A DNA stretch of 33,753 bases, taken from UHGV virus genome UHGV-0114643; one strand, given 5' to 3'. Shown here piece by piece: positions 1,409-21,319 of this stretch. This stretch comes from a virus. A model generated the notes under the pieces. It was not told where the DNA came from. It did no database searches and worked only from the letters and a program-made list of their open reading frames with translations. Both the position numbers and the translations under genes were made by a program. How positions within the stretch are numbered: position 1 is the first letter of the stretch; each line of letters begins with the position of its first letter.

Positions 1409-1672
1409 ATGAATAATCAAGAAATCACTATCCTGTTACAAATTGGCACTGACAAAGAAGATATCCAACTTTGCAAACGTATTGAGAGTGATTGGTTCAA
1501 CGGTGAAATCATCGCAGAATCTTATGAAGTAGTTGGATTCATGAATGGTGAAGTTGTAAGCCATTTCGGTTTAACTAAATCTGAAGCCGTTGCAAAGTAT
1601 GACGTTTTATCTTGTGAGATTCTTACAAAATACAATGAAAAAAGACTTGCAACTTATGCAGCAATGAATTAA
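1409..1672 (+). CDS. hypothetical protein, 87 aa
   Basis: ORF in track preceded by leader/SD. Confidence 0.5.
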   Translation: MNNQEITILLQIGTDKEDIQLCKRIESDWFNGEIIAESYEVVGFMNGEVVSHFGLTKSEAVAKYDVLSCEILTKYNEKRLATYAAMN

Positions 1673-1685
1673 TATTACTTTCAAC

Positions 1686-1738
1686 GGGGAGGGAGACTTC
1701 CCCACTAACCTAAAATTCCTAAACTGGAGAATCTGAAA
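1686..1738 (+). promoter_or_regulatory. leader element copy 5: hairpin (1686-1703) plus TCCTAAACTGGAGAATC core
   Basis: Repeat of hairpin and core upstream of ATG 1739. Confidence 0.55.
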
Positions 1739-1990
1739 ATGGCTACTATCCACGCAACTGTTAACAATTTTGGCTTCCACGTATTAGATGTTAAATTCGA
1801 TATGGTTGGAACTGGTGATGTTTTTGATATGGTTGATATGTGTCTGAAAGCAACTATTCAGGATTATAATCAGTCTGAGTGGTTCTGGAAAGAAGTTAAA
1901 CAAGAAGTCTTAAAGGATGGCATATCCTCTTATTATTGGGGTGATTCTCTTATCACGCTTTACTATGAAGTTGATGGCTTCAATAACTAA
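1739..1990 (+). CDS. hypothetical protein, 83 aa
   Basis: ORF in track preceded by leader/SD. Confidence 0.5.
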   Translation: MATIHATVNNFGFHVLDVKFDMVGTGDVFDMVDMCLKATIQDYNQSEWFWKEVKQEVLKDGISSYYWGDSLITLYYEVDGFNN

Positions 1991-2030
1991 CAAGTCGCCG
2001 CAACGGGGCAAATAGCCCCAGACACCTTTA

Positions 2031-2055
2031 CAGCCCCTTAGATGGGGCTTTTTAC
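2031..2055 (+). terminator. rho-independent terminator (AGCCCC-TTAGAT-GGGGCT + TTTTT); a second GC hairpin lies at 2004-2018
   Basis: Inverted repeat followed by T-run, 40 nt after the stop of the last + strand small gene. Confidence 0.6.
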
Positions 2056-3560
2056 GTCTTCCTAGAATCTTACCAGACATTTAGAACAATAACTCTATAG
2101 CTTACTCTATATCCTCTTATCAAATCAACTTAAATATAAGCCCATAACCCGAAAGGGAAGGGCAATCCCTAAAACGCTCTATAACGCTCTATACGGGCTT
2201 ATCATCTCATCTTAAGCAATCATATTAACCACTTCTTAAAAGCCCTTTATAGAGCTTTCTAGAGCCTTAAAAGAATCTTATAAGGGTATAAGCTTTATTA
2301 TCTCGTTAGTATCTTGTGAATAGTTAAACAGGGGCTTGAAAGTTACTTAATAATGTGTTATGGAGACTAAAAAGAGCTTAAAAGTAACGTAAAAGTTAGC
2401 CCCCTTTACATTCTCTTAACAAAATCTTAACAAATGCAACATAGTTATGCTTATTAGAGACTTGTTAGCCCCTTGTTAAATCCTTGTTAGATGTATGTTA
2501 AAAGCTTGTTAGACACTTTGAAGTCCCTGTATAAGCCCCTAGAAAGCCCTATAAAGAGCTATACAGGTAGTTGGTGTGTAGTTACTAGGGAGAACCTTAG
2601 AAGAGGCTATACAGAGCTATATAGAGCTTTTAAGAGGGCTTTATAGAGAATCACTAAGAAGCATAGGGAACGATAAGAGAAGAGATAGTGACCATGTTAA
2701 TAGCTTGTTAAAAAGGTTAAACACTTGTTAGAGCCTTGTTAATTATCTTAACAAAATAACTCTTAAGATTTAACTATTTAGCAACTTATAAGCAACTTGT
2801 TAGATTCTTGTAAGTACTGTTAAACTCTTGTTACACCCTTGTTAGTTCTGTTAAGAAACTGTTAAGACCTTTGAAGAGATGTTAAGAGCTTGGGAGAGTT
2901 GTTAAGAGATTGTTAATGATATTTTAAGATTTTGCAAAGGGGATGTTACAGGGCTGTTAAGGGCTACCAAGCAGATATACACCCATGAGGTAGATTCTAC
3001 CGAATCCACTAGTAGATATTTTTCAGACTCTCCAAAGACCCTAAAAGTAACCTACCTAGTCTATTTTATAAAAATTTTATAGAACTGAATAACTATCTAT
3101 ACACTATCTTATATAAAACAGGAATTAACAGGCTTATAAGAGACCTTGTTAGTACCGTGTTAGACCTTGTAGGATAAGCCTTTACAGGGAATACCTGTTT
3201 AGTGTTATATAACAGTCTATATAGAGGCTTAGTAATACCTAGTGATTCTGCTATATAGGGTACTATCTTGGACATAGAGATTAAGATGGGTATAGGGGCT
3301 TCTAAGGGGCTAGAAAGAGGTTAGGAAGGTGATTGTATAGGGTTGATTAATGGTAGGCTTAGAAGGCTTTATAGAGGGCTATATAGAGAGCACTATTTAG
3401 AGACTAAGAGGCTATATAGATACTATATAATACTATATAGAGATGATGCTTAGAGAGGGTGTTTAGAAGGGTATAGATATTTTATCACATATCATGGTGA
3501 CCCAAGATGAACGGAGTGAATCCCAAATTTTATAAAAATATAAATTTCGTAAATTTTACT
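2056..3560. repeat. 1.5-kb non-coding repeat-dense region with two short-repeat families (TGTTAAG/CTTGTTAG and [G]CTATA[T/C]AGAG)
   Basis: No credible ORF on either strand; more than 20 copies of TGTTAA[G] in 2400-2960; TATAGAG-type copies in 2160-2660 and 3340-3460. Confidence 0.7.
2985..3008. repeat. 24-bp direct repeat copy 1 (ATGAGGTAGATTCTACCGAATCCA) containing the 13-bp palindrome GGTAGA-T-TCTACC
   Basis: Read directly; 22 of 24 identical to copy 2 at 3576-3599. Confidence 0.7.
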
Positions 3561-3611
3561 CAATAAAAAGCCCCTATGAGATAGATTCTATCGAATCCAT
3601 TTTAAGGGGCT
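3561..3611 (-). terminator. candidate intrinsic terminator for the - strand operon (AGCCCCT ... AGGGGCT stem, then T-run on the - strand)
   Basis: 7-bp inverted repeat around a 29-nt loop, followed on the - strand by TTTTTATT, 9 nt after the stop of the last - strand gene. Confidence 0.4.
3576..3599. repeat. 24-bp direct repeat copy 2 (ATGAGATAGATTCTATCGAATCCA) containing the palindrome GATAGA-T-TCTATC
   Basis: Read directly; its two differences from copy 1 are compensatory within the palindrome. Confidence 0.7.
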
Positions 3612-3619
3612 GTATAGTT

Positions 3620-4285
3620 TTACATCACTTCACTAAGCATAGTTTGCAATGAAGTTTTAGAAGTCTGGAAGAAGTGTGTGAACCCATTATGACGTTCTCT
3701 TACCTGAATCATTATCTGGTCACCCTTAATTGGGTGTGAACTAATATGGTATTCATTCATGTTCAGTACAGCACCCAAACCATCTATAATGTGTCTGAGT
3801 ATGTCATATTCAACAAATTCTTCTTTACCTGTGACCTTGATACAAACACCTTTGTTGGTTCTCTTAGGGTTTATATCTTCCATAACCAGCATTTGTTGTC
3901 CACCAAGAGAAATCATAGAGAACTCTTTACGGTTCTGCTGCTTAACATACATCTCAAGTTTCTTCAAAGTATCTTCATAGAACGGATAAGACTTCTTGAC
4001 AAAGACACCTTCAAGTGGCTCTTTACCTGAGTCTTCTCGTTCCATCTTAAGTCGATTAACAAGTAATTCTAAAGACCACTTCTCACTTTCATCAAGATAT
4101 GTATTGATATCATCTAGACTCAGTACCAGATACCTTCTTTCAAGTTCAAACTTTTTCATCTCTATCAAATCCTTAAAGCATTTCTTAGTAATTGCTTCCC
4201 ATTCTTCGGAGTTCTTTCTCTTCCTCTTCAGATGGGGAACCATATCTGTTAAGTTCTTCCAACTCTTCTTCAGTAGGTGTCCCAT
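3620..4285 (-). CDS. hypothetical protein (~221 aa); start uncertain (ATG 4285 or GTG 4291)
   Basis: ORF in track; position 4291 is GTG; ATGA-type overlap with upstream gene. Confidence 0.5.
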   Translation of the reverse strand: MGHLLKKSWKNLTDMVPHLKRKRKNSEEWEAITKKCFKDLIEMKKFELERRYLVLSLDDINTYLDESEKWSLELLVNRLKMEREDSGKEPLEGVFVKKSYPFYEDTLKKLEMYVKQQNRKEFSMISLGGQQMLVMEDINPKRTNKGVCIKVTGKEEFVEYDILRHIIDGLGAVLNMNEYHISSHPIKGDQIMIQVRERHNGFTHFFQTSKTSLQTMLSEVM

Positions 4286-13936: not shown

Positions 13937-14016
13937 CTCCGTTTAGCTCAGTTTGGTTTAGCAGCACTTGCTTTGGGAGCAAGGGGTCGAGGGTTCAAAT
14001 CCTTCAACGGAGACCA
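13937..14016 (+). tRNA. tRNA-Pro (anticodon TGG), CCA encoded
   Basis: 7-bp acceptor stem CTCCGTT/AACGGAG, T-arm GAGGG-TTCAAAT-CCTTC, anticodon loop TTTGGGA. Confidence 0.8.
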
Positions 14017-14022
14017 AATTAT

Positions 14023-14100
14023 ATTCCCGTAGACAAATTAGGTAAAGTCAACACCCTTTCAAGGTGTGGTTTGAGGGTTCAAGTCCCTTCGGGAATGCCA
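14023..14100 (+). tRNA. tRNA-Glu (anticodon TTC), CCA encoded
   Basis: Perfect acceptor stem ATTCCCG/CGGGAAT, T-arm, anticodon loop CTTTCAA. Confidence 0.85.
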
Positions 14101-14107
14101 GTTTTGA

Positions 14108-14177
14108 CAGAAGACCAATTACAGCAAACAAACTTTTCAATTTCGCGCATAGAAATCCAAAAAAGATTTGGTCTGGT
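14108..14177 (+). repeat. inter-tRNA element a (CAGAAGACC ... GGTCTGGT family); candidate small structured RNA
   Basis: Shares 5' (CAGAAGACC-N-ACAGCAA) and 3' (GGTCTGGT) ends with three other spacers; terminal 5-bp helix AGACC/GGTCT. Confidence 0.6.
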
Positions 14178-14187
14178 CATTAAGAAT

Positions 14188-14264
14188 TGCGGGTATAGAG
14201 AAAGGGTGTCTCACATGTCTCATTAGCATGTTATCGGTAGGTTCGACTCCTACACCCGCCTCCA
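14188..14264 (+). tRNA. tRNA with CAT anticodon (Met, fMet or Ile2), atypical (U1:C72 mismatch, U at position 37)
   Basis: Acceptor TGCGGGT/ACCCGCC, T-arm GTAGG-TTCGACT-CCTAC, anticodon arm CATGT-CTCATTA-GCATG, CCA encoded. Confidence 0.55.
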
Positions 14265-14270
14265 AATTTA

Positions 14271-14336
14271 CAGAAGACCGTTTACAGCAAACACTTAAAA
14301 TTTTTTATAGGAAAAAATGAAAAGATACGGTCTGGT
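14271..14336 (+). repeat. inter-tRNA element b (CAGAAGACC ... GGTCTGGT family)
   Basis: Direct repeat of the element termini. Confidence 0.6.
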
Positions 14337-14347
14337 AATACTAATAT

Positions 14348-14424
14348 GGTTAGGAAGCACATAAGGCATGTGCGGTCGGCTGTTAACCGAATGGTACAGG
14401 GTTCGAATCCCTGACTAACCGCCA
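14348..14424 (+). tRNA. tRNA-Asn (anticodon GTT)
   Basis: Acceptor GGTTAGG/ACTAACC, D-stem GCAC/GTGC, anticodon loop CTGTTAA, T-arm CAGGG-TTCGAAT-CCCTG, CCA encoded. Confidence 0.8.
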
Positions 14425-14493
14425 AGATTTGGGAGAGAAGTGATTGCTCACCGATTTGTAAGGTGCAAGTCCTTAGCCTGAATAGAATAAAAT

Positions 14494-14581
14494 GCGTCGT
14501 TATCCCGTAGATGGAAGCGGTGGTGACTGTAAATCACTTGTCATTATGACTCGGTAGGTTCGACTCCTTCACGGCGCACCA
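14494..14581 (+). tRNA. tRNA-Tyr (anticodon GTA), long variable arm
   Basis: Acceptor GCGTCGT/ACGGCGC, anticodon arm GGTGA-CTGTAAA-TCACT, variable-arm hairpin, T-arm, CCA encoded. Confidence 0.8.
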
Positions 14582-14587
14582 AATAAA

Positions 14588-14664
14588 GGTTATGTAGTTT
14601 AACTGGTCAAAATACCTCCCTGTCACGGAGGATGATGAGGGTTCGAATCCCTTCGTAACCGCCA
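14588..14664 (+). tRNA. tRNA-Asp (anticodon GTC)
   Basis: Acceptor GGTTATG/CGTAACC, D-stem GTTT/AAAT, anticodon arm CCTCC-CTGTCAC-GGAGG, T-arm GAGGG-TTCGAAT-CCCTT, CCA encoded. Confidence 0.85.
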
Positions 14665-14725
14665 AATTTGAGAGGGCTTGTTAGCCCCTCCCTTAAAGAG
14701 TTCTTACGAGTATTCTTTAAAGGAG

Positions 14726-14800
14726 CAGAAGACCAAATACAGCAAGCAATTTTAATATTTCAAGCCAATTTAATTTGAAAAATTTAAAACTTGGTCTGGT
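14726..14800 (+). repeat. inter-tRNA element c (CAGAAGACC ... GGTCTGGT family)
   Basis: Direct repeat of the element termini. Confidence 0.6.
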
Positions 14801-14813
14801 TCCAACAATTTTA

Positions 14814-14940
14814 CAGAAGACCGTTTACAGCAAACAATAAACAATCTATTTCTCTGGTAAAGAAAAGGCGAAGGTTCGATTCCTTCACACGTTACGGCGT
14901 GTTGGTGTAATGGAAGCACTTAAGATAAATACGGTCTGGT
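14814..14940 (+). repeat. inter-tRNA element d (127 nt) with internal T-arm mimic (GAAGG-TTCGATT-CCTTC) and D-arm-like hairpin; candidate Y-RNA-like ncRNA
   Basis: Same termini as a-c; tRNA-like motifs present but no acceptor stem pairing, so not a tRNA. Confidence 0.5.
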
Positions 14941-15089
14941 AATCCTCTTTGCAGTGACTTATGGAGCTAATATGTCGTCCCATGAGTGCCGATGAGTTTC
15001 TTGAGCATGATTCTAGATTAGCTTACTAAGAGACAACTCTACAAACCCTTTAGCAAGGTTTGCGTAGGTTACTGCAAAGATGATTTAAT

Positions 15090-15165
15090 GGAAGTGTAGC
15101 AGAATGGTGATGCGGCAGACTTTTAATCTGACAGGCGACGGGTTCGAATCCCTCCACTTCTACCA
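15090..15165 (+). tRNA. tRNA-Lys (anticodon TTT)
   Basis: Acceptor GGAAGTG/CACTTCT, anticodon loop CTTTTAA, T-loop GGGTTCGAATCCC, CCA encoded. Confidence 0.8.
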
Positions 15166-15246
15166 AATTCGCCCCTTAACTGAAGAACACATGCGCGGCT
15201 GGAAACACCCACTCAATCAGTTCTCTACAAAGGGGCAACTTATAAT

Positions 15247-15323
15247 GGTTCAGTCGCAGATAAGGTAATGCAAGGGTTTCATAAGCCCTATGAATGTGGG
15301 TTCGATTCCCACCTGAACCTCCA
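15247..15323 (+). tRNA. tRNA-Met (anticodon CAT; could be initiator or Ile2)
   Basis: Perfect acceptor GGTTCAG/CTGAACC, anticodon arm AGGGT-TTCATAA-GCCCT, T-arm GTGGG-TTCGATT-CCCAC, CCA encoded. Confidence 0.8.
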
Positions 15324-15325
15324 AT

Positions 15326-15400
15326 TGTGGGTTAGCATAAATGGTAATGCAAACGGCTGATAACCGTTAGAAGAGGGTTCGATACCCTCACCTACAACCA
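15326..15400 (+). tRNA. tRNA-Ile (anticodon GAT)
   Basis: Acceptor TGTGGGT/ACCTACA, D-stem GCAT/ATGC, anticodon arm AACGG-CTGATAA-CCGTT, T-arm GAGGG-TTCGATA-CCCTC, CCA encoded. Confidence 0.85.
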
Positions 15401-15414
15401 ATTTCATAAAGTTG

Positions 15415-15443
15415 TTGACATTCAGATGTGACCACTTTAAGAT
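15415..15443 (+). promoter_or_regulatory. internal promoter-like element (TTGACA-N17-TAAGAT) inside the tRNA array
   Basis: Exact -35, 17-nt spacer, 4/6 at -10. Confidence 0.35.
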
Positions 15444-15676
15444 AACCTTAGTTTTCGTTAGCGTAGCGTCTATTTTAAAAACTTAAAAATAAATGCAAAC
15501 GATAATGTTTTTCTGGCAGTAGCTTAATAGGCTAAACACCAGCAGGGTATTCCAACTCCCTGTTAAAGAATTTGGCGTACTAGCCCACGGTATGATTAAT
15601 AAAGTGGGCAATATTCTAAAGAGCATCCCTTAAGGGGCTTGGCTTAAATGCAATGAGTGCTCTTTAAAATATTAAT

Positions 15677-15752
15677 GCTCCGTTAGTCTAAAGGATAGGC
15701 AACTGTCTTCTAAACAGTTCATATATAGGTTCGAGTCCTATACGGAGTGCCA
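15677..15752 (+). tRNA. tRNA-Arg (anticodon TCT)
   Basis: Acceptor GCTCCGT/ACGGAGT, D-stem GTCT/AGGC, anticodon arm ACTGT-CTTCTAA-ACAGT, T-arm ATAGG-TTCGAGT-CCTAT, CCA encoded. Confidence 0.85.
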
Positions 15753-15813
15753 ATTCTAATGGTCAAGACAACACGAGTAAGTTATCTTAGATACGCGTTA
15801 AGAGATAAACGAA

Positions 15814-15881
15814 AGTCGGAAAGTTGCTGAAGGGTAGCTCCCTTCGATAGTAAGTAGGTTCGACTCCTACCTTGACTGCCA
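15814..15881 (+). tRNA. tRNA-like element, probably degenerate or interrupted (canonical T-arm and 3' end with CCA, but no D-arm; a perfect 5' acceptor partner GGTCAAG lies at 15761-15767)
   Basis: T-arm GTAGG-TTCGACT-CCTAC and 3' strand CTTGACT-G-CCA; only 65 nt from the nearest 5' partner, 118 nt from the perfect one. Confidence 0.3.
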
Positions 15882-16046
15882 AATAGTTAGCAGATTACTA
15901 CGACGACCTTTATGGGTCTCCGCATTGACTTGAAAGAGTCAATCTCATAAGGAGGTGGTCTGTATCTCATGTTTTCCAGAACATGTAAATAATCTGAGAA
16001 GAAGCTTGACAGTGTTGAGATAACAGGGTAAGCTTCGAAATATAGT

Positions 16047-16129
16047 ATGGGACGATGTTAAGACACTAAGGCATGTGCGTAAGCCTCCAAAACTTACTCA
16101 AAGGGGTTCGAATCCTCCGTCCCATGCCA
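16047..16129 (+). tRNA. atypical tRNA, candidate tRNA-Trp (CCA inside a 9-nt anticodon loop CCUCCAAAA; D region ~7 nt too long)
   Basis: Perfect acceptor ATGGGAC/GTCCCAT, T-loop GGGGTTCGAATCC, CCA encoded; Trp is the only amino acid otherwise missing from the array. Confidence 0.45.
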
Positions 16130-16142
16130 AAGTCTTATTAGG

Positions 16143-16230
16143 GGTAGGTAGCGGCTAATGGAAGCCAAACTGTCTTGAAAACAGTTGCCATTGTAGAGAT
16201 ACGGTGAGGGTTCGACTCCTTTATCTACCG
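16143..16230 (+). tRNA. tRNA-Ser (anticodon TGA), long variable arm; 3' CCA not encoded (CCT follows)
   Basis: Acceptor GGTAGGT/ATCTACC, anticodon arm ACTGT-CTTGAAA-ACAGT, 20-nt variable arm, T-arm GAGGG-TTCGACT-CCTTT. Confidence 0.75.
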
Positions 16231-16485
16231 CCTAATAAGATTTAAAGCTGAGACTCGCTGTTCGGGCAAGTGTTTCAGGTTTCCTCTTCGTGTATTGGCG
16301 TACACGGCACTGGTAAAACACCTAGTAGGTGTCACGGAGAAGAGATAGTATCAAGCTCTCCAAAGGTTCTAGTCACCGGATTAAACAAGACTATGCAAAG
16401 GCCAATAGGTCTTTTTAGAGAATTGTTAAGATGTTTAATACCATTGTTGCTTTGGTGTCTTAGCAGTTCTCTACAAAGATTTAAT

Positions 16486-16562
16486 GCACCTATAGCCCAA
16501 CTGGAAGAGGCAGCAGACTTAGAATCTGCTCAGTGTGAGTTCGAATCTCTCTAGGTGTACCA
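16486..16562 (+). tRNA. tRNA with Leu anticodon TAG, class-II-like D-arm but short variable loop
   Basis: Acceptor GCACCTA/TAGGTGT, anticodon arm GCAGA-CTTAGAA-TCTGC, discriminator A, CCA encoded. Confidence 0.7.
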
Positions 16563-16569
16563 AATTAAT

Positions 16570-16645
16570 GCAGGTGTAGCAAAATGGTTATGCGGCTGAC
16601 TCTTAATCAGTAAGACGATGGGTTCAATTCCCTCCACCTGTACCA
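16570..16645 (+). tRNA. tRNA-Lys (anticodon CTT)
   Basis: Acceptor GCAGGTG/CACCTGT, anticodon loop CTCTTAA, T-loop GGGTTCAATTCCC, CCA encoded. Confidence 0.8.
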
Positions 16646-16651
16646 AACAAT

Positions 16652-16727
16652 GGGGATGTAGTTTACATGGTTAAAACATAAGTTTTGCAAACTTAAGTAC
16701 AGGGTTCAATTCCCTGCTTCTCCACCA
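16652..16727 (+). tRNA. tRNA-Ala (anticodon TGC) with G3:U70 identity pair
   Basis: Acceptor GGGGATG/CTTCTCC, D-stem GTTT/AAAC, anticodon arm TAAGT-TTTGCAA-ACTTA, T-arm CAGGG-TTCAATT-CCCTG, CCA encoded. Confidence 0.85.
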
Positions 16728-16733
16728 ATTAGT

Positions 16734-16808
16734 GCATCCATAGTTTAAACGGGAAAATTACAGTCTTCCAAACTGAGGTTGAGGGTTCGATTCCCTCTGG
16801 ATGCTCCA
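16734..16808 (+). tRNA. tRNA-Gly (anticodon TCC)
   Basis: Perfect acceptor GCATCCA/TGGATGC, anticodon loop CTTCCAA, T-arm GAGGG-TTCGATT-CCCTC, CCA encoded. Confidence 0.85.
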
Positions 16809-16814
16809 AATAAT

Positions 16815-16890
16815 GCTCTTATCGTATAATTGGCTATTACGGTTGCCTTGTAAGCAACTTATCAGGGTTCGAATCCTTGTGGGAGCACCA
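16815..16890 (+). tRNA. tRNA-Thr (anticodon TGT)
   Basis: Acceptor GCTCTTA/TGGGAGC, anticodon arm GTTGC-CTTGTAA-GCAAC, T-arm CAGGG-TTCGAAT-CCTTG, CCA encoded. Confidence 0.85.
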
Positions 16891-16987
16891 ATTTTGAGGT
16901 CAAGTGAAAGACCGCTTGAGTCAACTGAAGACCGTAACAAATTCCACGGAGTTGAGTTAGCGGCACAGCTTCAGACCTCTTTTCAAA

Positions 16988-17062
16988 GCTCGCTTAGTTT
17001 ATATGGTAAAGCCCCATCCTTACAAGTTGGTGAAGAAGGTTCAAGTCCTTCAGCGAGTACCA
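16988..17062 (+). tRNA. tRNA-Val (anticodon TAC)
   Basis: Acceptor GCTCGCT/AGCGAGT, D-stem GTTT/AAGC, anticodon loop CTTACAA, T-arm GAAGG-TTCAAGT-CCTTC, CCA encoded. Confidence 0.75.
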
Positions 17063-17063
17063 A

Positions 17064-17141
17064 GTTCCAGTATCCCAATTGGCAGAGGATGCAAGCTCAA
17101 ACCTTGTATTAGTGACGGTTCGAATCCGTCTTGGAACACCA
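17064..17141 (+). tRNA. tRNA with Leu anticodon CAA, class-II-like D-arm (3-bp stem, CAATTGGCAGA loop) but short variable loop
   Basis: Acceptor GTTCCAG/TTGGAAC, anticodon arm GCAAG-CTCAAAC-CTTGT, T-arm GACGG-TTCGAAT-CCGTC, discriminator A, CCA encoded. Confidence 0.7.
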
Positions 17142-17156
17142 AATTAGGAGATTCCT

Positions 17157-17369
17157 ATGAAGCCTTATGGTAGACATGGTAAAGTTGAAATTGCAAGTTG
17201 TGGTTGCTGTGCTTCTCACGATGGTGAAGAAGATTACTACAAGTGGCGTACAGACCATCGTAAACGCTTTCTCAGAAGAGATAAGAAGAAAGCTAGACAG
17301 GAATCTCGAAAGAATATTGCAGAATTAGTTCAAATGGATAGAACAGCAATCTACGAAGTTGTTTGTTAG
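17157..17369 (+). CDS. small basic Cys-containing hypothetical protein, 70 aa; last ~17 codons overlap tRNA-Arg
   Basis: ATG with AGGAGA 7 nt upstream; ORF in track; overlap makes the true extent uncertain. Confidence 0.35.
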   Translation: MKPYGRHGKVEIASCGCCASHDGEEDYYKWRTDHRKRFLRRDKKKARQESRKNIAELVQMDRTAIYEVVC

Positions 17370-17395
17370 GGGTTCGAATCCCTTATTCTGCACCA
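17319..17395 (+). tRNA. tRNA-Arg (anticodon ACG)
   Basis: Perfect acceptor GCAGAAT/ATTCTGC, D-stem GTTC/GAAC, anticodon arm GCAAT-CTACGAA-GTTGT, T-arm AGGGG-TTCGAAT-CCCTT, CCA encoded. Confidence 0.8.
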
Positions 17396-17413
17396 ATTTT
17401 AGAAGGTAATTAT

Positions 17414-17641
17414 ATGCGTAAACTCATTATTGAAAGGCATAAAGATGCTGACAAGATTGAAACAACACAAGTTGGGGACACTGACTTCATTCTTGTAGGT
17501 TGGAAATGTGACCCAATAGCAGCTATGAAGGTTGTTCATGGTTTTGCAGGAATTGAATTTAATCAAATCATATTTGAAACGCTATTACCAGAAAATCAGG
17601 ATACGTGTAATAACGCATATGTCCTGACAAGAGTTCGTTAG
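17414..17641 (+). CDS. hypothetical protein, 75 aa (paralogue A: MRKLIIERH ... DTCNNAYVLTRVR); start moved to the ATG with a proper RBS
   Basis: About 60% identical to 17686..17913; AGAAGG upstream of ATG. Confidence 0.5.
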   Translation: MRKLIIERHKDADKIETTQVGDTDFILVGWKCDPIAAMKVVHGFAGIEFNQIIFETLLPENQDTCNNAYVLTRVR

Positions 17642-17667
17642 GGGTTCGAATCCCTTATTCTGCACCA
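17633..17667 (+). pseudogene. tRNA 3' fragment (T-arm + acceptor 3' strand + CCA), identical to the 3' end of tRNA-Arg(ACG); duplication scar
   Basis: 30 of 31 nt identical to 17365-17395; no complementary 5' acceptor strand or D-arm upstream. Confidence 0.55.
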
Positions 17668-17685
17668 AATTTAAAAGGGTAACTT

Positions 17686-17913
17686 ATGTTTAAACTCATA
17701 GTTGAAAAACACCCAGAAGATGACAAGCTTGAAACAGGGAGATTTGGAGATACTTTCTTTATCAGAGTTGGCTGGAAAGCTGACCCATTAGAAGTTAGAA
17801 AGATTGTCTACAACTTTGCTGGTTTGGAATTAAAGCAAGTCATCTTTGAAACAATGTTGCCAGAAAATAAAGATACATGCAATAACGCATATATTCTTAC
17901 AAGAGTTAGTTAG
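17686..17913 (+). CDS. hypothetical protein, 75 aa (paralogue B: MFKLIVEKH ... DTCNNAYILTRVS)
   Basis: ORF in track; AAGGG upstream; paralogous to 17414..17641. Confidence 0.5.
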   Translation: MFKLIVEKHPEDDKLETGRFGDTFFIRVGWKADPLEVRKIVYNFAGLELKQVIFETMLPENKDTCNNAYILTRVS

Positions 17914-17987
17914 GGGATTAGTTTACAAGGTTAAAACCTCGGTCTTTGAAATCGAAGAAGTTGGTTCAATTCCAACATCCCCCGCCA
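17912..17987 (+). tRNA. tRNA-Gln (anticodon TTG); starts inside the stop codon of the preceding ORF
   Basis: Acceptor AGGGGAT/ATCCCCC (A1:C72), D-stem GTTT/AAAC, anticodon arm TCGGT-CTTTGAA-ATCGA, T-arm GTTGG-TTCAATT-CCAAC, CCA encoded. Confidence 0.8.
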
Positions 17988-17989
17988 AT

Positions 17990-18068
17990 GCTCCATTACT
18001 CCAATTGGCAGAGAGGCCAGACTTAAAATCTGTGTTATGTATCGGTTCGAATCCGATATGGAGTACCA
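17990..18068 (+). tRNA. tRNA with Leu anticodon TAA, class-II-like D-arm but short variable loop
   Basis: Perfect acceptor GCTCCAT/ATGGAGT, D-arm CTC-CAATTGGCA-GAG, anticodon arm CCAGA-CTTAAAA-TCTGT, T-arm ATCGG-TTCGAAT-CCGAT, discriminator A, CCA encoded. Confidence 0.7.
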
Positions 18069-18074
18069 AATATT

Positions 18075-18150
18075 AGCAGTGTAGCATAACTGGCAATGCT
18101 CCAGCCTCTGAAGCTGAATGATTAAGGTTCAAATCCTTACGCTGCTGCCA
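18075..18150 (+). tRNA. tRNA-Gln (anticodon CTG)
   Basis: Acceptor AGCAGTG/CGCTGCT, D-stem GCAT/ATGC, anticodon loop CTCTGAA, T-arm TAAGG-TTCAAAT-CCTTA, CCA encoded. Confidence 0.8.
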
Positions 18151-18181
18151 CTTCTAAGGGTTCTTACGAGAGTCCTTAAAT

Positions 18182-18255
18182 GTGGCCTTATCATAAATGG
18201 ACAATGACCCATGCTGTGAACATGGTCTATACGGGTTCGATTCCCGTAGGTCACC
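18182..18255 (+). tRNA. tRNA-His (anticodon GTG); 3' tail reads C-CCCCA rather than N-CCA and no obvious G-1
   Basis: Acceptor GTGGCCT/AGGTCAC, perfect D-stem TCAT/ATGA, anticodon arm CCATG-CTGTGAA-CATGG, T-arm ACGGG-TTCGATT-CCCGT. Confidence 0.7.
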
Positions 18256-18267
18256 CCCCAATTCAAT

Positions 18268-18343
18268 AGCTCAATTAGCTTATATGGTTAAAGCGCGTGT
18301 CTGAAAAACATGAGAACAGGGTTCAAATCCCGATGGGCTACCA
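18268..18343 (+). tRNA. tRNA-Phe (anticodon GAA), acceptor/T-stem register ambiguous
   Basis: D-stem GCTT/AAGC, anticodon arm CGTGT-CTGAAAA-ACATG, T-loop GGGTTCAAATCCC, 3' ...ACCA. Confidence 0.6.
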
Positions 18344-18359
18344 ATTTTATAGGTGCATA

Positions 18360-19094
18360 ATGAAAGAGATGACAGAACAAGGTAAAGAGATTTTTGGTCT
18401 CCTTAAATCTGGTAACGGGTTCTCTAACCCTCTTATTACTGGTGCAGCAGTTCTTGGTGGTACTGTAGCTGCCTCTCAATCATTAGTTAACTCAATTAGT
18501 TCTGTAACAGACCCAGCTACACAACAGATTTTAGTTGCTGCTGGACTGACAACAGCCTTATTAGGAAGCTTCACAACAAGCCTTGGAAGGACAACTTCAA
18601 CGACAAGTACACTCACTGAGTATGGACAAAAGTCTGTAGATGAGTTTTCACAACGTATGCAAGTAGCTAAGGGTTACTCTAATGTTATGGGAGCAGCAGG
18701 TGAACAGGTTGGATGTACACCGTTTAGTGGTATCATGGGCGTAGCTACCGAGTACGGTAATAAAGCGATGGATTTGATTAATACCTCCATAGACGCTGTA
18801 AATAGCGTTCTAAGCGATTTGCAAGATGCAATCGACCAAGGACTAGATACAATCTCTGAACTCGCTACACAGGCCGTTACAGCGATTAATGAGGGTATTG
18901 CAAAGATTACTGCATATGCTAATGAAGTAACTCAGATGATTGCAGATGAAGCAGCACTGATTGCAGAATACCTGAAAACAAATATTAATGGTTTCCTTGC
19001 GAATGTTCTACCAAGCTGGTTTGATGATTCATGTAAAACTGGTGTGATTGACACTATCGCAACTCCAGAGATGAAAGAAGCTCTGAACAAATAA
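18360..19094 (+). CDS. hypothetical protein (~244 aa), Ala/Thr/Ser/Gly-rich with hydrophobic N-terminal segment; start moved downstream of the tRNA
   Basis: Track ORF began inside tRNA-Phe; ATG at 18360 has AGGTG upstream. Confidence 0.5.
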   Translation: MKEMTEQGKEIFGLLKSGNGFSNPLITGAAVLGGTVAASQSLVNSISSVTDPATQQILVAAGLTTALLGSFTTSLGRTTSTTSTLTEYGQKSVDEFSQRMQVAKGYSNVMGAAGEQVGCTPFSGIMGVATEYGNKAMDLINTSIDAVNSVLSDLQDAIDQGLDTISELATQAVTAINEGIAKITAYANEVTQMIADEAALIAEYLKTNINGFLANVLPSWFDDSCKTGVIDTIATPEMKEALNK

Positions 19095-19095
19095 C

Positions 19096-19188
19096 GGAAG
19101 ATTAACCCTAAAAGGTAAGGGAGCAGTTTGCTAAACTGCCAGTAACCGAGAAATCGGCGTACCAGTTCAAGTCTGGTATCTTCCTCCA
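19096..19188 (+). tRNA. tRNA-Ser (anticodon GCT), long variable arm
   Basis: Perfect acceptor GGAAGAT/ATCTTCC, 3-bp D-stem, anticodon arm GCAGT-TTGCTAA-ACTGC, T-arm ACCAG-TTCAAGT-CTGGT, CCA encoded. Confidence 0.8.
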
Positions 19189-19194
19189 AATTAT

Positions 19195-19270
19195 GTGTCG
19201 GTGTCAGAAATGGTTATGTCCCTGTCTGCAAAACAGGTTTATGAGGGTTCGAGTCCCTTCCGATACTCCA
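19195..19270 (+). tRNA. tRNA-Cys (anticodon GCA)
   Basis: Acceptor GTGTCGG/CCGATAC, anticodon arm CCTGT-CTGCAAA-ACAGG, T-arm GAGGG-TTCGAGT-CCCTT, CCA encoded. Confidence 0.8.
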
Positions 19271-19489: not shown

Positions 19490-19696
19490 ATGAACGAGAC
19501 TAATGTTTACAAAGAACTATATGAAACTCAGAAACAGGCTCAAATGCTTCAAGCAACTGTAATGGCTGTGGCTGAACGTTTAATTGTTGCAACTGGTATT
19601 AACCCACAGGAAGCAACGATGGATAAACTTCTTAATTTAGTAGATGAAAAGTTTGGTGTAGAACCTAAACAGGAATCTGAAGAAGTTTCTGAATAA
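19490..19696 (+). CDS. hypothetical protein, 68 aa, acidic C-terminus
   Basis: ORF in track; GGAGAAA upstream of ATG. Confidence 0.5.
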   Translation: MNETNVYKELYETQKQAQMLQATVMAVAERLIVATGINPQEATMDKLLNLVDEKFGVEPKQESEEVSE

Positions 19697-19717
19697 TTCT
19701 ATTTGCAGAGGTGCTTA

Positions 19718-21319
19718 ATGGACTTAAATGTTATTAAGCAGAAGCGAGTGGAAGATGTAAGGAAAGTCCTAGCAGGTGAGTTGGGGCTTTCTGAAGAAGT
19801 AAAAGATATTATCAAATCCTTTGGTAAAGACCCCTCTAAATTCCTTCCAACTCAAATTCTGACTTTATTAAGATATACCCCAGACCAAGTAAGACTCATC
19901 TTTAAATTGATGACTGACAAGAACTATGTAGCTCCACAGCCTGGCTCTCAAGAGGTATTCTTGAATACCAATGCTGACTTGGTACTATATGGTGGTGCTG
20001 CTGGTGCTGGTAAGACTGCTGCCCTTTTAATGGACTCTTTGAGATTCATTGATGACCCTAACTATAACGCTGTATATTTCCGTCGAAATACTACACAGTT
20101 ACAAGGTGGTTTATGGCCAGCAGCTAAAAAGCTATTTGGTAAGTTTGGTGGAATCCCACACGAACAGAAAATGACTATTACGTTCCCTTCAGGGGCGACT
20201 ATTAAGTTTACTTATTTGGAACTTGAAAAACACTCAGAAGGTCACCAAGGTATCGAATACTCAGCTATTTACTTCGACGAAGGTACACACTTCTCGGCTT
20301 CACAGATTTCATATCTTCAGACACGTTTACGTTCTGGTGCTGAAGGTGACTCATATATGAAAATCTCAATGAACCCAGATAGAGACCACTTTATTTATGA
20401 TTGGGTAGAACCTTTCCTAGATGATGCTGGATATCCAGACCCAGAGAAGTGCGGTAGGATTCGTTGGTATGTTATGAATGATGGTGTCATGGTTTCTGAT
20501 TGGGATAGAGATAAAATTCTTGAAATGTTCCCTCTTGAGATTCCTCAAACATATACCTTTATTTCTGGTACAATTGATGACAACCCTATTCTAGATTTCC
20601 TTGAACCTAAGTATCGTGGTAAATTAGAAAACAACACACCAGTTAACGTTGCACGTTTACGTTTTGGTAACTGGAAAGCTCGTGCTGAAGGTTCAAACTA
20701 CTGGCAAAGACAATGGTGTGAAATTGTTGATAGTGTTCCAGCAGATGTATTTGACGTAAGAGCATGGGACTTAGCAGCAACATTACCTTCTGAGGTTAAC
20801 CCTAACCCTGACTGGACAGCAGGTGTTAAAATGGGTAAATCTAAAAAAGATGGTTGCTATTATGTGATTAACGTAGTAAGATTTAGAGATAGACCTTCTG
20901 GAGTTGAAACACAAATTAACCAAACTGCTGAAGGTGATGGTAAGCGCACAGGTATTTTTATCCCTCAAGACCCCGGCGCTGCTGGTAAATCCTACGCAAC
21001 CTCCCTTATTAGAAAACTTGCTGAGAAAGGTTTCCGAGCAAGAGCTAAACCAACAAATAAAGATAAAGTCACCCGTTTTGCGGGTTTCTCTGCTGCTTCT
21101 GAGGCAGGACTTGTCAAAATTGTTAGAGGCTCTTGGAATGAAGCATATTTCCAAGAACTAGAAGGTTTTTGTGGCGATGGTCGTACTAAGGATGACCAAG
21201 TGGATGCTACCAGTGATGCTTTCAACAGTCTAAACGAAGTTAAACTATTCAAGCCACCTTCAATGGGTGCTCATACAGATATTATGAAGAGTAATCCATA
21301 TCAGGGGCTAAGACGCTAA
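19718..21319 (+). CDS. terminase large subunit (~533 aa); ATG 19718 preferred over the track TTG 19703
   Basis: Walker A P-loop in LVLYGGAAGAGKTAA; size and position directly upstream of portal. Confidence 0.8.
   Translation: MDLNVIKQKRVEDVRKVLAGELGLSEEVKDIIKSFGKDPSKFLPTQILTLLRYTPDQVRLIFKLMTDKNYVAPQPGSQEVFLNTNADLVLYGGAAGAGKTAALLMDSLRFIDDPNYNAVYFRRNTTQLQGGLWPAAKKLFGKFGGIPHEQKMTITFPSGATIKFTYLELEKHSEGHQGIEYSAIYFDEGTHFSASQISYLQTRLRSGAEGDSYMKISMNPDRDHFIYDWVEPFLDDAGYPDPEKCGRIRWYVMNDGVMVSDWDRDKILEMFPLEIPQTYTFISGTIDDNPILDFLEPKYRGKLENNTPVNVARLRFGNWKARAEGSNYWQRQWCEIVDSVPADVFDVRAWDLAATLPSEVNPNPDWTAGVKMGKSKKDGCYYVINVVRFRDRPSGVETQINQTAEGDGKRTGIFIPQDPGAAGKSYATSLIRKLAEKGFRARAKPTNKDKVTRFAGFSAASEAGLVKIVRGSWNEAYFQELEGFCGDGRTKDDQVDATSDAFNSLNEVKLFKPPSMGAHTDIMKSNPYQGLRR

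What the first reader, a model, noticed from the sequence alone, without database searches (positions are those of the whole stretch)
2056..3560. 1.5-kb repeat-dense non-coding region at a site of convergent transcription
Between terminators at 2031-2055 (+) and 3561-3611 (-) there is no credible ORF. The region holds more than 20 copies of TGTTAA[G]/CTTGTTAG, often at ~10-20-bp spacing (densest 2690-2960), and a second family [G]GCTATA[T/C]AGAG in 2160-2660 and 3340-3460. Iterated short repeats of this kind usually mark a replication origin, a packaging/terminal-repeat region, or an array of protein-binding sites.
Basis: partly seen in the sequence, partly recalled or inferred. Interest (0 to 1): 0.65.

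Follow-up and report, generated by a model that had tools for sequence, protein, structure and literature searches.

The report
Phage genome ends: terminal repeat region
The repeat-dense, gene-free 1.5 kb is where the linear DNA of a Felix O1-like phage begins and ends: it holds the ~570-bp direct terminal repeat, which is packed with a conserved 5-base motif spaced one helical turn apart. This is a known kind of feature, but the motif arrangement appears not to have been described.

Summary
TGTTAR occurs 24 times in 2056-3560 against 2.5±1.6 in shuffles, GCTWTAYAG occurs 8 times against 0.15, and no ORF there is conserved.

The window comes from an Ounavirinae myophage close to the Mooglevirus genus (95.7% to Citrobacter phage BSwM KMM4). 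Relatives whose genome ends were determined place both physical termini inside this region:
- Exact direct terminal repeats (DTRs) of vB_CbrM_HP1 (570 bp) and vB_EcoM_D4 (581 bp) map to window 2399-2968.
- Other records end at the same two conserved boundary sequences.
- UAB_Phi87's run-off-sequenced 608-bp DTR fits the same interval, which is 614 bp between the boundary motifs.
- The window's large terminase is 99% identical to HP1's.

So the "convergent transcription site" is the concatemer junction, meaning the two genome ends.

Of the TGTTA cores in the region, 20 forward and 3 inverted copies lie inside the DTR. The cores are 97% conserved across three genera, against 82% for the rest of the DTR. 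They are phased at 10.4 bp, and they are gained or lost in 11- or 22-bp units.

I infer that they are binding sites for a packaging or end-processing protein. That protein is not identified. A replication-origin role is neither supported nor excluded.

Verdict: a new member of a known kind, of moderate interest.

The parts
2032..2055 (+). Intrinsic terminator that closes the rightmost transcription unit of the linear genome
   Evidence: Terminator scan; fold -12.2 kcal/mol, z -3.0; conserved in the 12-genome alignment
2056..2398 (.). Non-coding unique DNA just outside the left DTR boundary, i.e. next to the right-end copy of the DTR in the virion. It carries inverted copies of motif family 2 (CTCTATA at 2093, 2105, 2177, 2187).
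   Evidence: mean conservation 0.86 across 12 genomes; no conserved ORF
2399..2968 (.). Homologue of the exact direct terminal repeat (570 bp). It is present once in the window because assemblies collapse the two copies.
   Evidence: HP1 repeat_region 1-570 and 88766-89335 is 100% self-identical and aligns to 2399-2968. The D4 581-bp DTR aligns to the same interval. The pEP20 record is cut at 2968|2969. The boundary motifs occur only once in the window.
2399..2432 (.). Left-terminus block: GCCCCCTTTACATT followed by two inverted motif copies (TTAACA at 2416 and 2427; the TAACA cores lie at +19 and +30 from the end)
   Evidence: Nearly invariant in 12 genomes. The same +19/+30 spacing from the end is found in HP1, D4 and Erwinia phage vEam_PM_6.
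2441..2512 (+). Array A: five exact CTTGTTA/TGTTAR units at 11-bp spacing, preceded by two degenerate units
   Evidence: (family D1)
2528..2650 (+). Family-2 cluster inside the DTR (GCTATACAGAGCTATATAGAGC... with a 10-bp period). It forms imperfect inverted repeats with the left-flank copies.
   Evidence: D3, D4, I1, I3 with 86% complementary arms 2241-2269 / 2532-2560
2695..2753 (+). Array B: four TGTTAR units plus one degenerate unit, ending in one inverted copy (TTAACA at 2748)
2798..2960 (+). Array C: about 16 units (11 exact TGTTA plus degenerate TTGTAAG/TTTGAAG/TTGGGAG/TTTTAAG) with a mean period near 10.5 bp, running up to the right terminus
   Evidence: Fourier peak at 10.4 bp for 2790-2968
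2934..2968 (.). Right-terminus block GCAAAGGGGATGTTACAGGGCTGTTAAGGGCTACC. The DTR ends after ...CTACC. The inner part (TGTTAA..TTTGCAAAGGGG) is an imperfect inverted copy of the left-terminus block.
   Evidence: Alignment; inverted repeats I2/I5; ends of the HP1, D4, pEP20, SPJ41 and NBEco004 records
2969..3560 (.). Non-coding unique DNA next to the left-end copy of the DTR. It holds TTAACA/TGTTAG copies at 3125-3163 and seven TATAGAG/TATAGGG heptamers at 3220-3442 (CTATATAG cores from 3217).
   Evidence: mean conservation 0.77
2985..3011 (.). 27-nt hairpin-forming insertion 17 bp outside the right DTR boundary. It is present in only some relatives.
   Evidence: Alignment; found at the same site in 33 Ounavirinae records; second copy at 3578-3599
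3564..3611 (-). Intrinsic terminator that closes the leftmost transcription unit. Its loop carries the second copy of the 27-nt hairpin element.
   Evidence: Fold -21.5 kcal/mol, z -4.0, followed by a U-run
19718..21319 (+). Large terminase subunit, the enzyme expected to cut at the DTR boundaries
   Evidence: phrog_979, E 4e-234; 99% aa identity to HP1 TerL and 95% to D4 TerL

Best explanation
The region is the genome-end (concatemer-junction) region of a Felix O1-like myophage of the subfamily Ounavirinae, nearest to Mooglevirus.

Shown by homology. Window 2399-2968 corresponds to the ~570-bp exact direct terminal repeat found at both ends of virion DNA in relatives. The assembly has collapsed the two copies into one. 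That is why two outward-reading terminal gene blocks, each closed by a terminator, appear to converge on a gene-free stretch.

Shown here. Of the TGTTA cores in the region, 20 forward and 3 inverted copies lie inside the repeat. They are under stronger constraint than the bases between them, lie on one face of the helix (10.4-bp period), and change in number by whole 11-bp units. Both termini carry a pair of motif copies in the same orientation relative to the end, at +19/+30 from the left end and about +9/+20 from the right end.

Inferred. The arrays are binding sites for a phage protein, either a terminase recognition subunit or another end-processing factor. That protein coats or wraps the junction and positions the large terminase (19718-21319) to cut at the two conserved boundary sequences. 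The repeat is then duplicated by strand-displacement synthesis, as in the classical T7-type model.

My confidence that this is the terminal-repeat region is about 0.9. My confidence that the motif arrays serve packaging or end processing, rather than another DNA transaction, is about 0.5.
For: Relatives. The region is conserved in 256-290 Ounavirinae records.

Position of the ends in relatives:
- HP1 (Mooglevirus) has an annotated, 100% identical 570-bp repeat at both record ends, and it aligns exactly to 2399-2968.
- D4 has an exact 581-bp DTR on the same interval, from a PhageTerm-based paper (PMC11737134).
- The pEP20, SPJ41, NBEco004, ECP2307, CRP22 and GE_vB_7A records start or end at the same two boundaries.
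- UAB_Phi87's DTR of 608 bp was determined by Bal31 digestion and run-off sequencing (PMC4837284). The interval between the boundary motifs in its record is 614 bp.
- Other published lengths are 581 bp (PMC8303462) and 613 bp (PMC6454146).
- Erwinia phage vEam_PM_6 has a 412-bp repeat that begins GCCACTTTTACATTTCGTTAACA directly after an Illumina adapter tail. It is also full of TGTTAA.

Terminase. The window's TerL is 99% identical to HP1's and 95% to D4's.

Motif evidence:
- Enrichment.
- Core conservation of 0.974 against 0.821 for other DTR positions, permutation P<1e-4.
- A 10.4-bp Fourier peak above all shuffles and above all random placements, also seen in HP1 and D4.
- Indels inside the DTR that are 11, 22 or 23 bp, apart from one of 19 bp and 1-3-bp adjustments.
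Against: - No reads or virion DNA of this phage are available, so the ends of this particular genome are inferred from homologues.
- Some deposited records may have been reoriented by similarity to others, so they are not all independent.
- The binding protein is unknown. No small terminase is recognisable. The conserved 68-aa ORF just upstream of TerL gave no family or fold match.
- The distances of the motif pairs from the two ends differ by about 10 bp.
- In the Erwinia record the right boundary lies 27 bp further in than in the enterobacterial phages.
- Family-2 repeats outside the DTR are not explained by a simple cut-site model.
Confidence: 0.8

Rival explanations
1. The arrays are iterons of a replication origin. 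A phage initiator would bind the phased TGTTA and/or CTATATAGAG repeats and open nearby AT-rich DNA. The overlap with the terminal repeat would be incidental, or the two functions could be combined.
For: Clustered, oriented, helically phased short repeats in a gene-free region are typical of origins. The region is highly conserved although non-coding. GC skew changes sign near 2500.
Against: - The conserved core is only 5-7 nt, with more than 20 copies, unlike the usual 4-8 iterons of 17-22 bp (my own knowledge).
- No initiator-like gene is adjacent. All ten flanking genes are PHROGs of unknown function.
- The skew change follows the orientation of the motifs and of the flanking genes, and the main cumulative-skew minimum lies near 11.5-12 kb.
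- The array limits coincide with the physical termini, and motif pairs sit at fixed distances from the ends across genera. That fits end recognition better.
Confidence: 0.12
2. The arrays bind a protein for a purpose unrelated to cutting or replication. Possible purposes are protecting or tethering the DNA ends after ejection, controlling the order or pausing of ejection (as at the T5 injection stop region), or insulating the terminal transcription units.
For: The footprint and phasing show protein-level constraint without identifying the process. Family-2 repeats lie outside the DTR on both sides. The genus-specific flank motif in Erwinia phages (CTTCTAAG at 11-12 bp) suggests a second, co-evolving binder.
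Against: There is no direct evidence. No candidate protein was found. The motif pairs at fixed distance from the ends point to end generation.
Confidence: 0.15
3. The repeats are non-functional slippage products in unconstrained spacer DNA.
For: Copy number varies by whole 11-bp units, as slippage would produce.
Against: - Cores are 97% conserved across three genera, while the spacers vary.
- The same motif fills the DTR of Erwinia phages, whose DNA is otherwise barely alignable.
- Phase is maintained over 570 bp.
- The whole non-coding region is 77-86% conserved.
Confidence: 0.02

Closest known systems
Short exact direct terminal repeats of Ounavirinae: UAB_Phi87 608 bp determined experimentally (PMC4837284); Pr103Blw 581 bp (PMC8303462); Ro111lw 613 bp (PMC6454146); vB_CbrM_HP1 570 bp annotated in OK539913; Felix O1 inferred (PMC3185647)
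   Same: Homologous sequence (79-94% identity), the same two boundary sequences, the same position between the same flanking genes, and a near-identical large terminase.
   Different: Nothing essential differs. This genome is another member. Neither the papers I read nor a limited full-text search (seven queries) describe the internal TGTTA arrays, their phasing, or the 11-bp quantisation.
Phage T7/T3 terminal repetition and concatemer junction, with arrays of short repeats beside the 160-bp repeat (Dunn & Studier 1983; recalled from memory, not checked here)
   Same: A short exact DTR, a single copy per concatemer junction that is duplicated during packaging (PMC10438801 restates the model), and arrays of short repeats associated with the junction.
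   Different: The phage is an unrelated myovirus. The repeat is 3.5 times longer. Here the arrays fill the repeat itself rather than only flanking it. There is no phage RNA polymerase promoter involvement that I could see. TerL gave no sequence match to any solved structure.
Small-terminase recognition arrays at pac/cos sites (SPP1 pacL/pacR boxes, lambda cosB R sites; from memory)
   Same: Several short, phased protein-binding repeats flank the terminase cut sites, and the DNA is predisposed to wrap or bend.
   Different: Those systems make headful or cohesive ends rather than exact DTRs. They have far fewer sites. No small terminase is recognisable in this phage group (PMC4837284).
Plasmid centromere arrays bound by ribbon-helix-helix proteins (R1 parC 11-bp iterons, TP228 parH tetramer boxes; from memory)
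   Same: Many copies of a very short motif lie at about one helical turn. This implies cooperative coating of one face of the DNA.
   Different: The biological role differs (partition). No ParR/ParG-like protein was found. This is only a structural analogy.

Membership tests
Short exact DTR genome ends (non-permuted, T7-type class of Casjens & Gilcrease) | An identical sequence is present at both ends of virion DNA | not testable with these tools
   The window holds a single collapsed copy and no reads are available. In relatives the record ends are 100% identical over 570 bp (HP1) and 581 bp (D4).
Short exact DTR genome ends (non-permuted, T7-type class of Casjens & Gilcrease) | Unique, sequence-specific termini that are conserved among relatives | tested here: met
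   The boundary sequences GCCCCCTT(T/A)ACATT and TGTTAAGGGCTACC are near-invariant in 12 genomes and occur once each in the window, at 2399 and 2968. Records from several laboratories begin or end there.
Short exact DTR genome ends (non-permuted, T7-type class of Casjens & Gilcrease) | The large terminase groups with terminases of phages known to make DTR ends | tested here: met
   99% aa identity to HP1 TerL and 95% to D4 TerL. UAB_Phi87 TerL falls in a Felix O1-like DTR cluster (PMC4837284).
Iteron-type replication origin | Iterons of about 17-22 bp bound by an initiator that is usually encoded nearby, next to an AT-rich unwinding element | tested here: inconclusive
   The conserved core is 5-7 nt within 10-11-bp units. 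The flanking genes have no recognisable function. No distinct AT-rich block exists: GC is 0.34-0.36 throughout, similar to the flanks.
Structured non-coding RNA | A match to a curated RNA family, or a conserved structure | tested here: not met
   No Rfam match at E<=1 in 1500-4200 on either strand. No tRNA lies in the region.
Protein-coding gene(s) | An ORF preserved among relatives | tested here: not met
   All four ORFs of 35-60 aa are broken or lack a start in most of the 11 relatives. Annotated 'hypothetical proteins' in some records are not shared.

The most novel reading that the evidence does not exclude
The helically phased TGTTA arrays that fill the terminal repeat could be a previously undescribed packaging-recognition element. 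About 20-25 copies of a 5-bp core would be coated or wrapped by an unrecognised small DNA-binding protein that stands in for a canonical small terminase in Felix O1-like phages. The two cut sites would be set by motif pairs at fixed distances from each end, and the repeat length would be tuned in 11-bp steps.
Probability: 0.35. Interest if true: 0.55.

Novelty: new member of a known kind. Interest (0 to 1): 0.4.

Why it matters
It fixes the true genome ends for this phage: left end at window 2399, and a repeat running to 2968. That corrects the map, because what looks like an internal convergent intergenic region is in fact the two termini. It also helps annotation of the many Ounavirinae records that are opened arbitrarily.

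Felix O1-like phages are widely used for Salmonella typing, biocontrol and therapy. Engineering or rebooting their genomes requires correct ends.

The conserved, phased motif arrays give a concrete and testable handle on how a DTR myovirus with no recognisable small terminase finds its cut sites.

Tried and rejected
1. Rfam scan of 1500-4200 at E<=1 gave nothing. ARAGORN found 25 tRNAs, all far away at 13.9-19.3 kb.

2. Promoter scan found 7 sigma-70-like sites against 9.7 expected, which is uninformative.

3. Coding hypothesis: all ORFs in the region fail conservation.

4. Search for a candidate motif-binding protein:
- Ten genes flanking the region are all PHROGs of unknown function with no Pfam domain.
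- The conserved 68-aa ORF in the usual small-terminase position (19490-19696) is phrog_4397 (unknown). It has only 13 homologues, all apparently from Felix O1-like phages: the named ones are Ounavirinae and the rest are unnamed metagenomic sequences.
- AlphaFold gives two helices (pLDDT 80).
- Foldseek against the PDB gives nothing below E=2.5. This line was a dead end.

5. TerL against solved structures by sequence gave no hit.

6. A scan of viral contigs for TGTTAA N5 TGTTAA N5 TGTTAA returned 120 loci. Dense arrays (18 or more copies per 600 bp) occurred in six loci; the four whose contig lengths I could read are 84-89 kb, the size of an Ounavirinae genome. A few weaker clusters elsewhere were not pursued. 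The first form of this scan, with variable gaps, failed.

7. GC skew as an origin indicator was rejected, because it follows gene and motif orientation.

8. A literature search for T7 pacB was swamped by 'PacBio' hits. The T7, SPP1 and lambda comparisons therefore rest on memory.

Full report
**What is there**

Window 2056-3560 lies between a + strand terminator and a - strand terminator. The first is a hairpin at 2032-2049 with a T-run (fold). The second spans 3564-3611 (-21.5 kcal/mol, z -4.0, followed by a U-run).

Genes to the left read rightward and genes to the right read leftward. The only ORFs inside the region are 35-60 aa. None survives comparison with 11 relatives: they have stops, frameshifts or no start codon. 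Rfam and ARAGORN find nothing in the region.

**The repeats are real**

| Motif | Copies in 2056-3560 | Expected from 1000 dinucleotide shuffles | Note |
|---|---|---|---|
| TGTTAR | 24 (20 on +, 4 on -) | 2.54±1.56 | about 2.9 per 1505 bp in the rest of the window |
| CTTGTTA | 11 | 0.37 | |
| GCTWTAYAG | 8 | 0.15 | none in the other 32 kb |
| TATAGAG/CTCTATA | 11 | 0.94 | |

All counts are. The repeat finder shows runs with 11-bp and 10-bp spacing.

**Identity of the genome**

The region matches 256-290 phage records, all of them Felix O1-like myoviruses of the subfamily Ounavirinae. The best matches are Citrobacter phage BSwM KMM4 (95.7%) and the Mooglevirus phages Michonne and Mordin (about 92%). 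Felixounavirus records match at about 77-80%.

The rest of the window fits this identification. It holds 25 tRNAs, an endolysin, the large terminase, portal, protease and major head protein.

**The key result: the physical genome ends lie inside the region**

- Mooglevirus vB_CbrM_HP1 (OK539913) is deposited with annotated repeat_regions at 1-570 and 88766-89335. These are 100% identical to each other and align to window 2399-2968 end to end. [quoted passage not shown]
- vB_EcoM_D4 has an exact 581-bp repeat at both record ends that covers the same interval. Its paper assigns direct terminal repeats using PhageTerm (PMC11737134).
- The pEP20 record is opened exactly at 2968|2969.
- The SPJ41, NBEco004, ECP2307, CRP22, I14.1, E9, H12 and GE_vB_7A records begin or end at one or both of the same boundaries.
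- For UAB_Phi87 the ends were determined experimentally by Bal31 digestion and run-off sequencing, giving a 608-bp DTR (PMC4837284). The interval between the two boundary motifs in its record is 614 bp.
- Other published lengths in the group are 581 bp (PMC8303462) and 613 bp (PMC6454146). The Felix O1 genome paper inferred short terminal repeats from genome size (PMC3185647).
- The window's large terminase (19718-21319) is 99% identical to HP1's and 95% to D4's.

I therefore place the DTR of this genome at 2399-2968. It begins G|CCCCCTTTACATT... and ends ...GCTGTTAAGGGCTACC|. This placement rests on homology. No reads of this phage were available.

**Consequence for the map**

The apparent convergent intergenic region is the concatemer junction. 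In the virion, 2399 onward is the left end and 2968 is the last base of the right end. Each terminal gene block is transcribed outward and stops at its terminator about 340 or 590 bp before the repeat.

**Anatomy relative to the ends**

- Of the TGTTA cores in the region, 20 forward and 3 inverted copies lie inside the DTR.
- Two inverted copies (TTAACA at 2416 and 2427) sit at +19 and +30 from the left end.
- Array A (2441-2512) has five exact units at 11 bp.
- A family-2 block follows (2528-2650, 10-bp period).
- Array B (2695-2753) ends in one inverted copy.
- Array C (2798-2960) has about 16 exact or degenerate units with a mean period near 10.5 bp and runs to within 9 bp of the right end.
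- Read inward from each end, both termini therefore show a pair of TTAACA-type copies 11 bp apart. The block at 2401-2435 is an imperfect inverted repeat of 2919-2953 (I2 and I5).
- Family 2 also lies outside the DTR. It is mostly inverted on the left flank (four CTCTATA at 2093-2193, plus one forward TATAGAG at 2248) and forward on the right flank (3217-3442).

**Evidence that the motifs are functional**

1. In a MAFFT alignment of 12 genomes from Mooglevirus, Suspvirus and Felixounavirus, the TGTTA/TAACA cores are 97.4% conserved. Other DTR positions are 82.1% conserved. None of 10,000 random 5-mer sets reached the observed value. The whole non-coding region is 77-86% conserved.

2. The positions of TGTTA, and of TTA/TAA generally, show a Fourier peak at 10.4 bp over the whole 570 bp. 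The peak exceeds all sequence shuffles and all random placements. It recurs in HP1 (10.4) and D4 (10.2). Coding controls show nothing comparable. The sites therefore lie on one face of the helix, and the three arrays are in register.

3. Indels inside the DTR among the 12 genomes are 11, 22 or 23 bp, apart from one of 19 bp and 1-3-bp adjustments. This gives DTR-equivalent lengths of 569, 570, 581, 603, 614, 625, 633 and 659 bp. Units are gained and lost whole.

4. In Erwinia phage vEam_PM_6 (Kolesnikvirus), only about 85-125 bp of the DNA here can be aligned. Its record still carries a 412-bp terminal repeat that starts GCCACTTTTACATTTCGTTAACAACTTTTTAACA immediately after nine bases of Illumina adapter. 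That repeat has TAACA at the same +19 and +30, and contains 21 TGTTA/TAACA copies. Its flanks use a different 11-12-bp repeat, CTTCTAAG.

**Mechanism**

Shown: the position of the ends (by homology), and the enrichment, conservation, phasing and unit-wise evolution of the motif.

Inferred: a phage protein binds the TGTTA cores cooperatively along one face of the repeat. The resulting nucleoprotein complex marks the junction in replicated concatemers and positions the large terminase at the two boundary sequences. The single junction copy of the repeat is then duplicated by strand-displacement synthesis, as in the general model for T7-type DTR phages (restated in PMC10438801).

TA-containing steps phased at 10.4 bp would also favour wrapping. 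That point is my inference from general DNA mechanics.

I could not identify the binding protein:
- The flanking genes have unknown function.
- The Felix O1 group is reported to lack a recognisable small terminase (PMC4837284).
- The conserved 68-aa ORF directly upstream of TerL (19490-19696) has no family annotation and only 13 homologues.
- Its predicted fold is two helices, with no structural neighbour.

**Rivals**

- A replication origin is not supported by anything specific. The core is very short and has many copies, no initiator gene is nearby, and the GC-skew sign change follows motif and gene orientation. Sequence alone cannot exclude it, and a dual role is possible.
- End protection, ejection control or insulation by a bound protein remains possible, especially for the family-2 repeats outside the DTR.
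- Neutral slippage is contradicted by the footprint and by cross-genus conservation.

**Comparison with what is known**

This is another member of the Ounavirinae short-DTR class, which is established experimentally. The functional analogues are recalled from memory and were not tested here:
- the T7/T3 terminal repetition with its neighbouring short-repeat arrays;
- small-terminase binding arrays at SPP1 pac and lambda cosB;
- structurally, the plasmid centromere arrays coated by ribbon-helix-helix proteins.

In the papers I read and the full-text searches I ran (papers), I found no description of the TGTTA arrays, their phasing or the 11-bp length classes. That detail may be new, but the search was limited.

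**Verdict**

The feature is a new member of a known kind, with an internal architecture that is moderately interesting and directly testable.

Noticed in passing
window 2985-3011 and 3573-3599: A 27-nt hairpin-forming sequence (ATGAGGTAGATTCTACCGAATCCACTA) sits 17 bp outside the right DTR boundary. A second copy (2 mismatches in 22 nt) lies inside the loop of the - strand terminator. The first copy is an insertion relative to most relatives. It is present at the same site in 33 Ounavirinae records scattered over Mooglevirus and Felixounavirus and absent from the other ~220-260 matching records, so it behaves like a small presence/absence element.
   Followed up: partly
window 19490-19696 and 19703-21319: A conserved 68-aa ORF lies directly upstream of the large terminase, in the same reading frame, separated by one stop codon and two further codons. 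The terminase PHROG profile (phrog_979) has about 81 extra N-terminal positions that the window's TerL does not match. Relatives annotate the two as separate genes. The small protein has no family or fold match.
   Followed up: partly
L011 (PP079182.1) 1-9: The deposited Erwinia phage vEam_PM_6 genome starts with TTCCGATCT, the 3' tail of the Illumina adapter, directly before the terminal repeat. This is an artefact in the record. It also indicates that reads really start at that base.
   Followed up: no
L012 (PP079182.1 about 83750-84150) and L011 670-710: In the Erwinia phage the non-coding flanks of the terminal repeat carry a different repeat (CTTCTAAG/TTCTCAG at 10-12 bp spacing) instead of the CTATATAGAG family. 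The TGTTAA motif inside the repeat is the same. This suggests two separate binding activities, one of them genus-specific.
   Followed up: partly
window 13937-19270: A cluster of 25 tRNA genes lies on the + strand, including two tRNA-Met, two Lys, two Arg, two Gln, two Ser and three Leu.
   Followed up: no
L074, L071, L087 (IMG/VR contigs): A few viral contigs that are not of Ounavirinae size, including a giant-virus MAG, hold 12-14 TGTTAR copies within 600 bp. This could be chance in AT-rich DNA or unrelated arrays.
   Followed up: no
window 2399-2968 versus relatives: DTR-equivalent lengths across relatives fall into classes separated by multiples of about 11 bp, because indels are whole repeat units.
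   Followed up: yes
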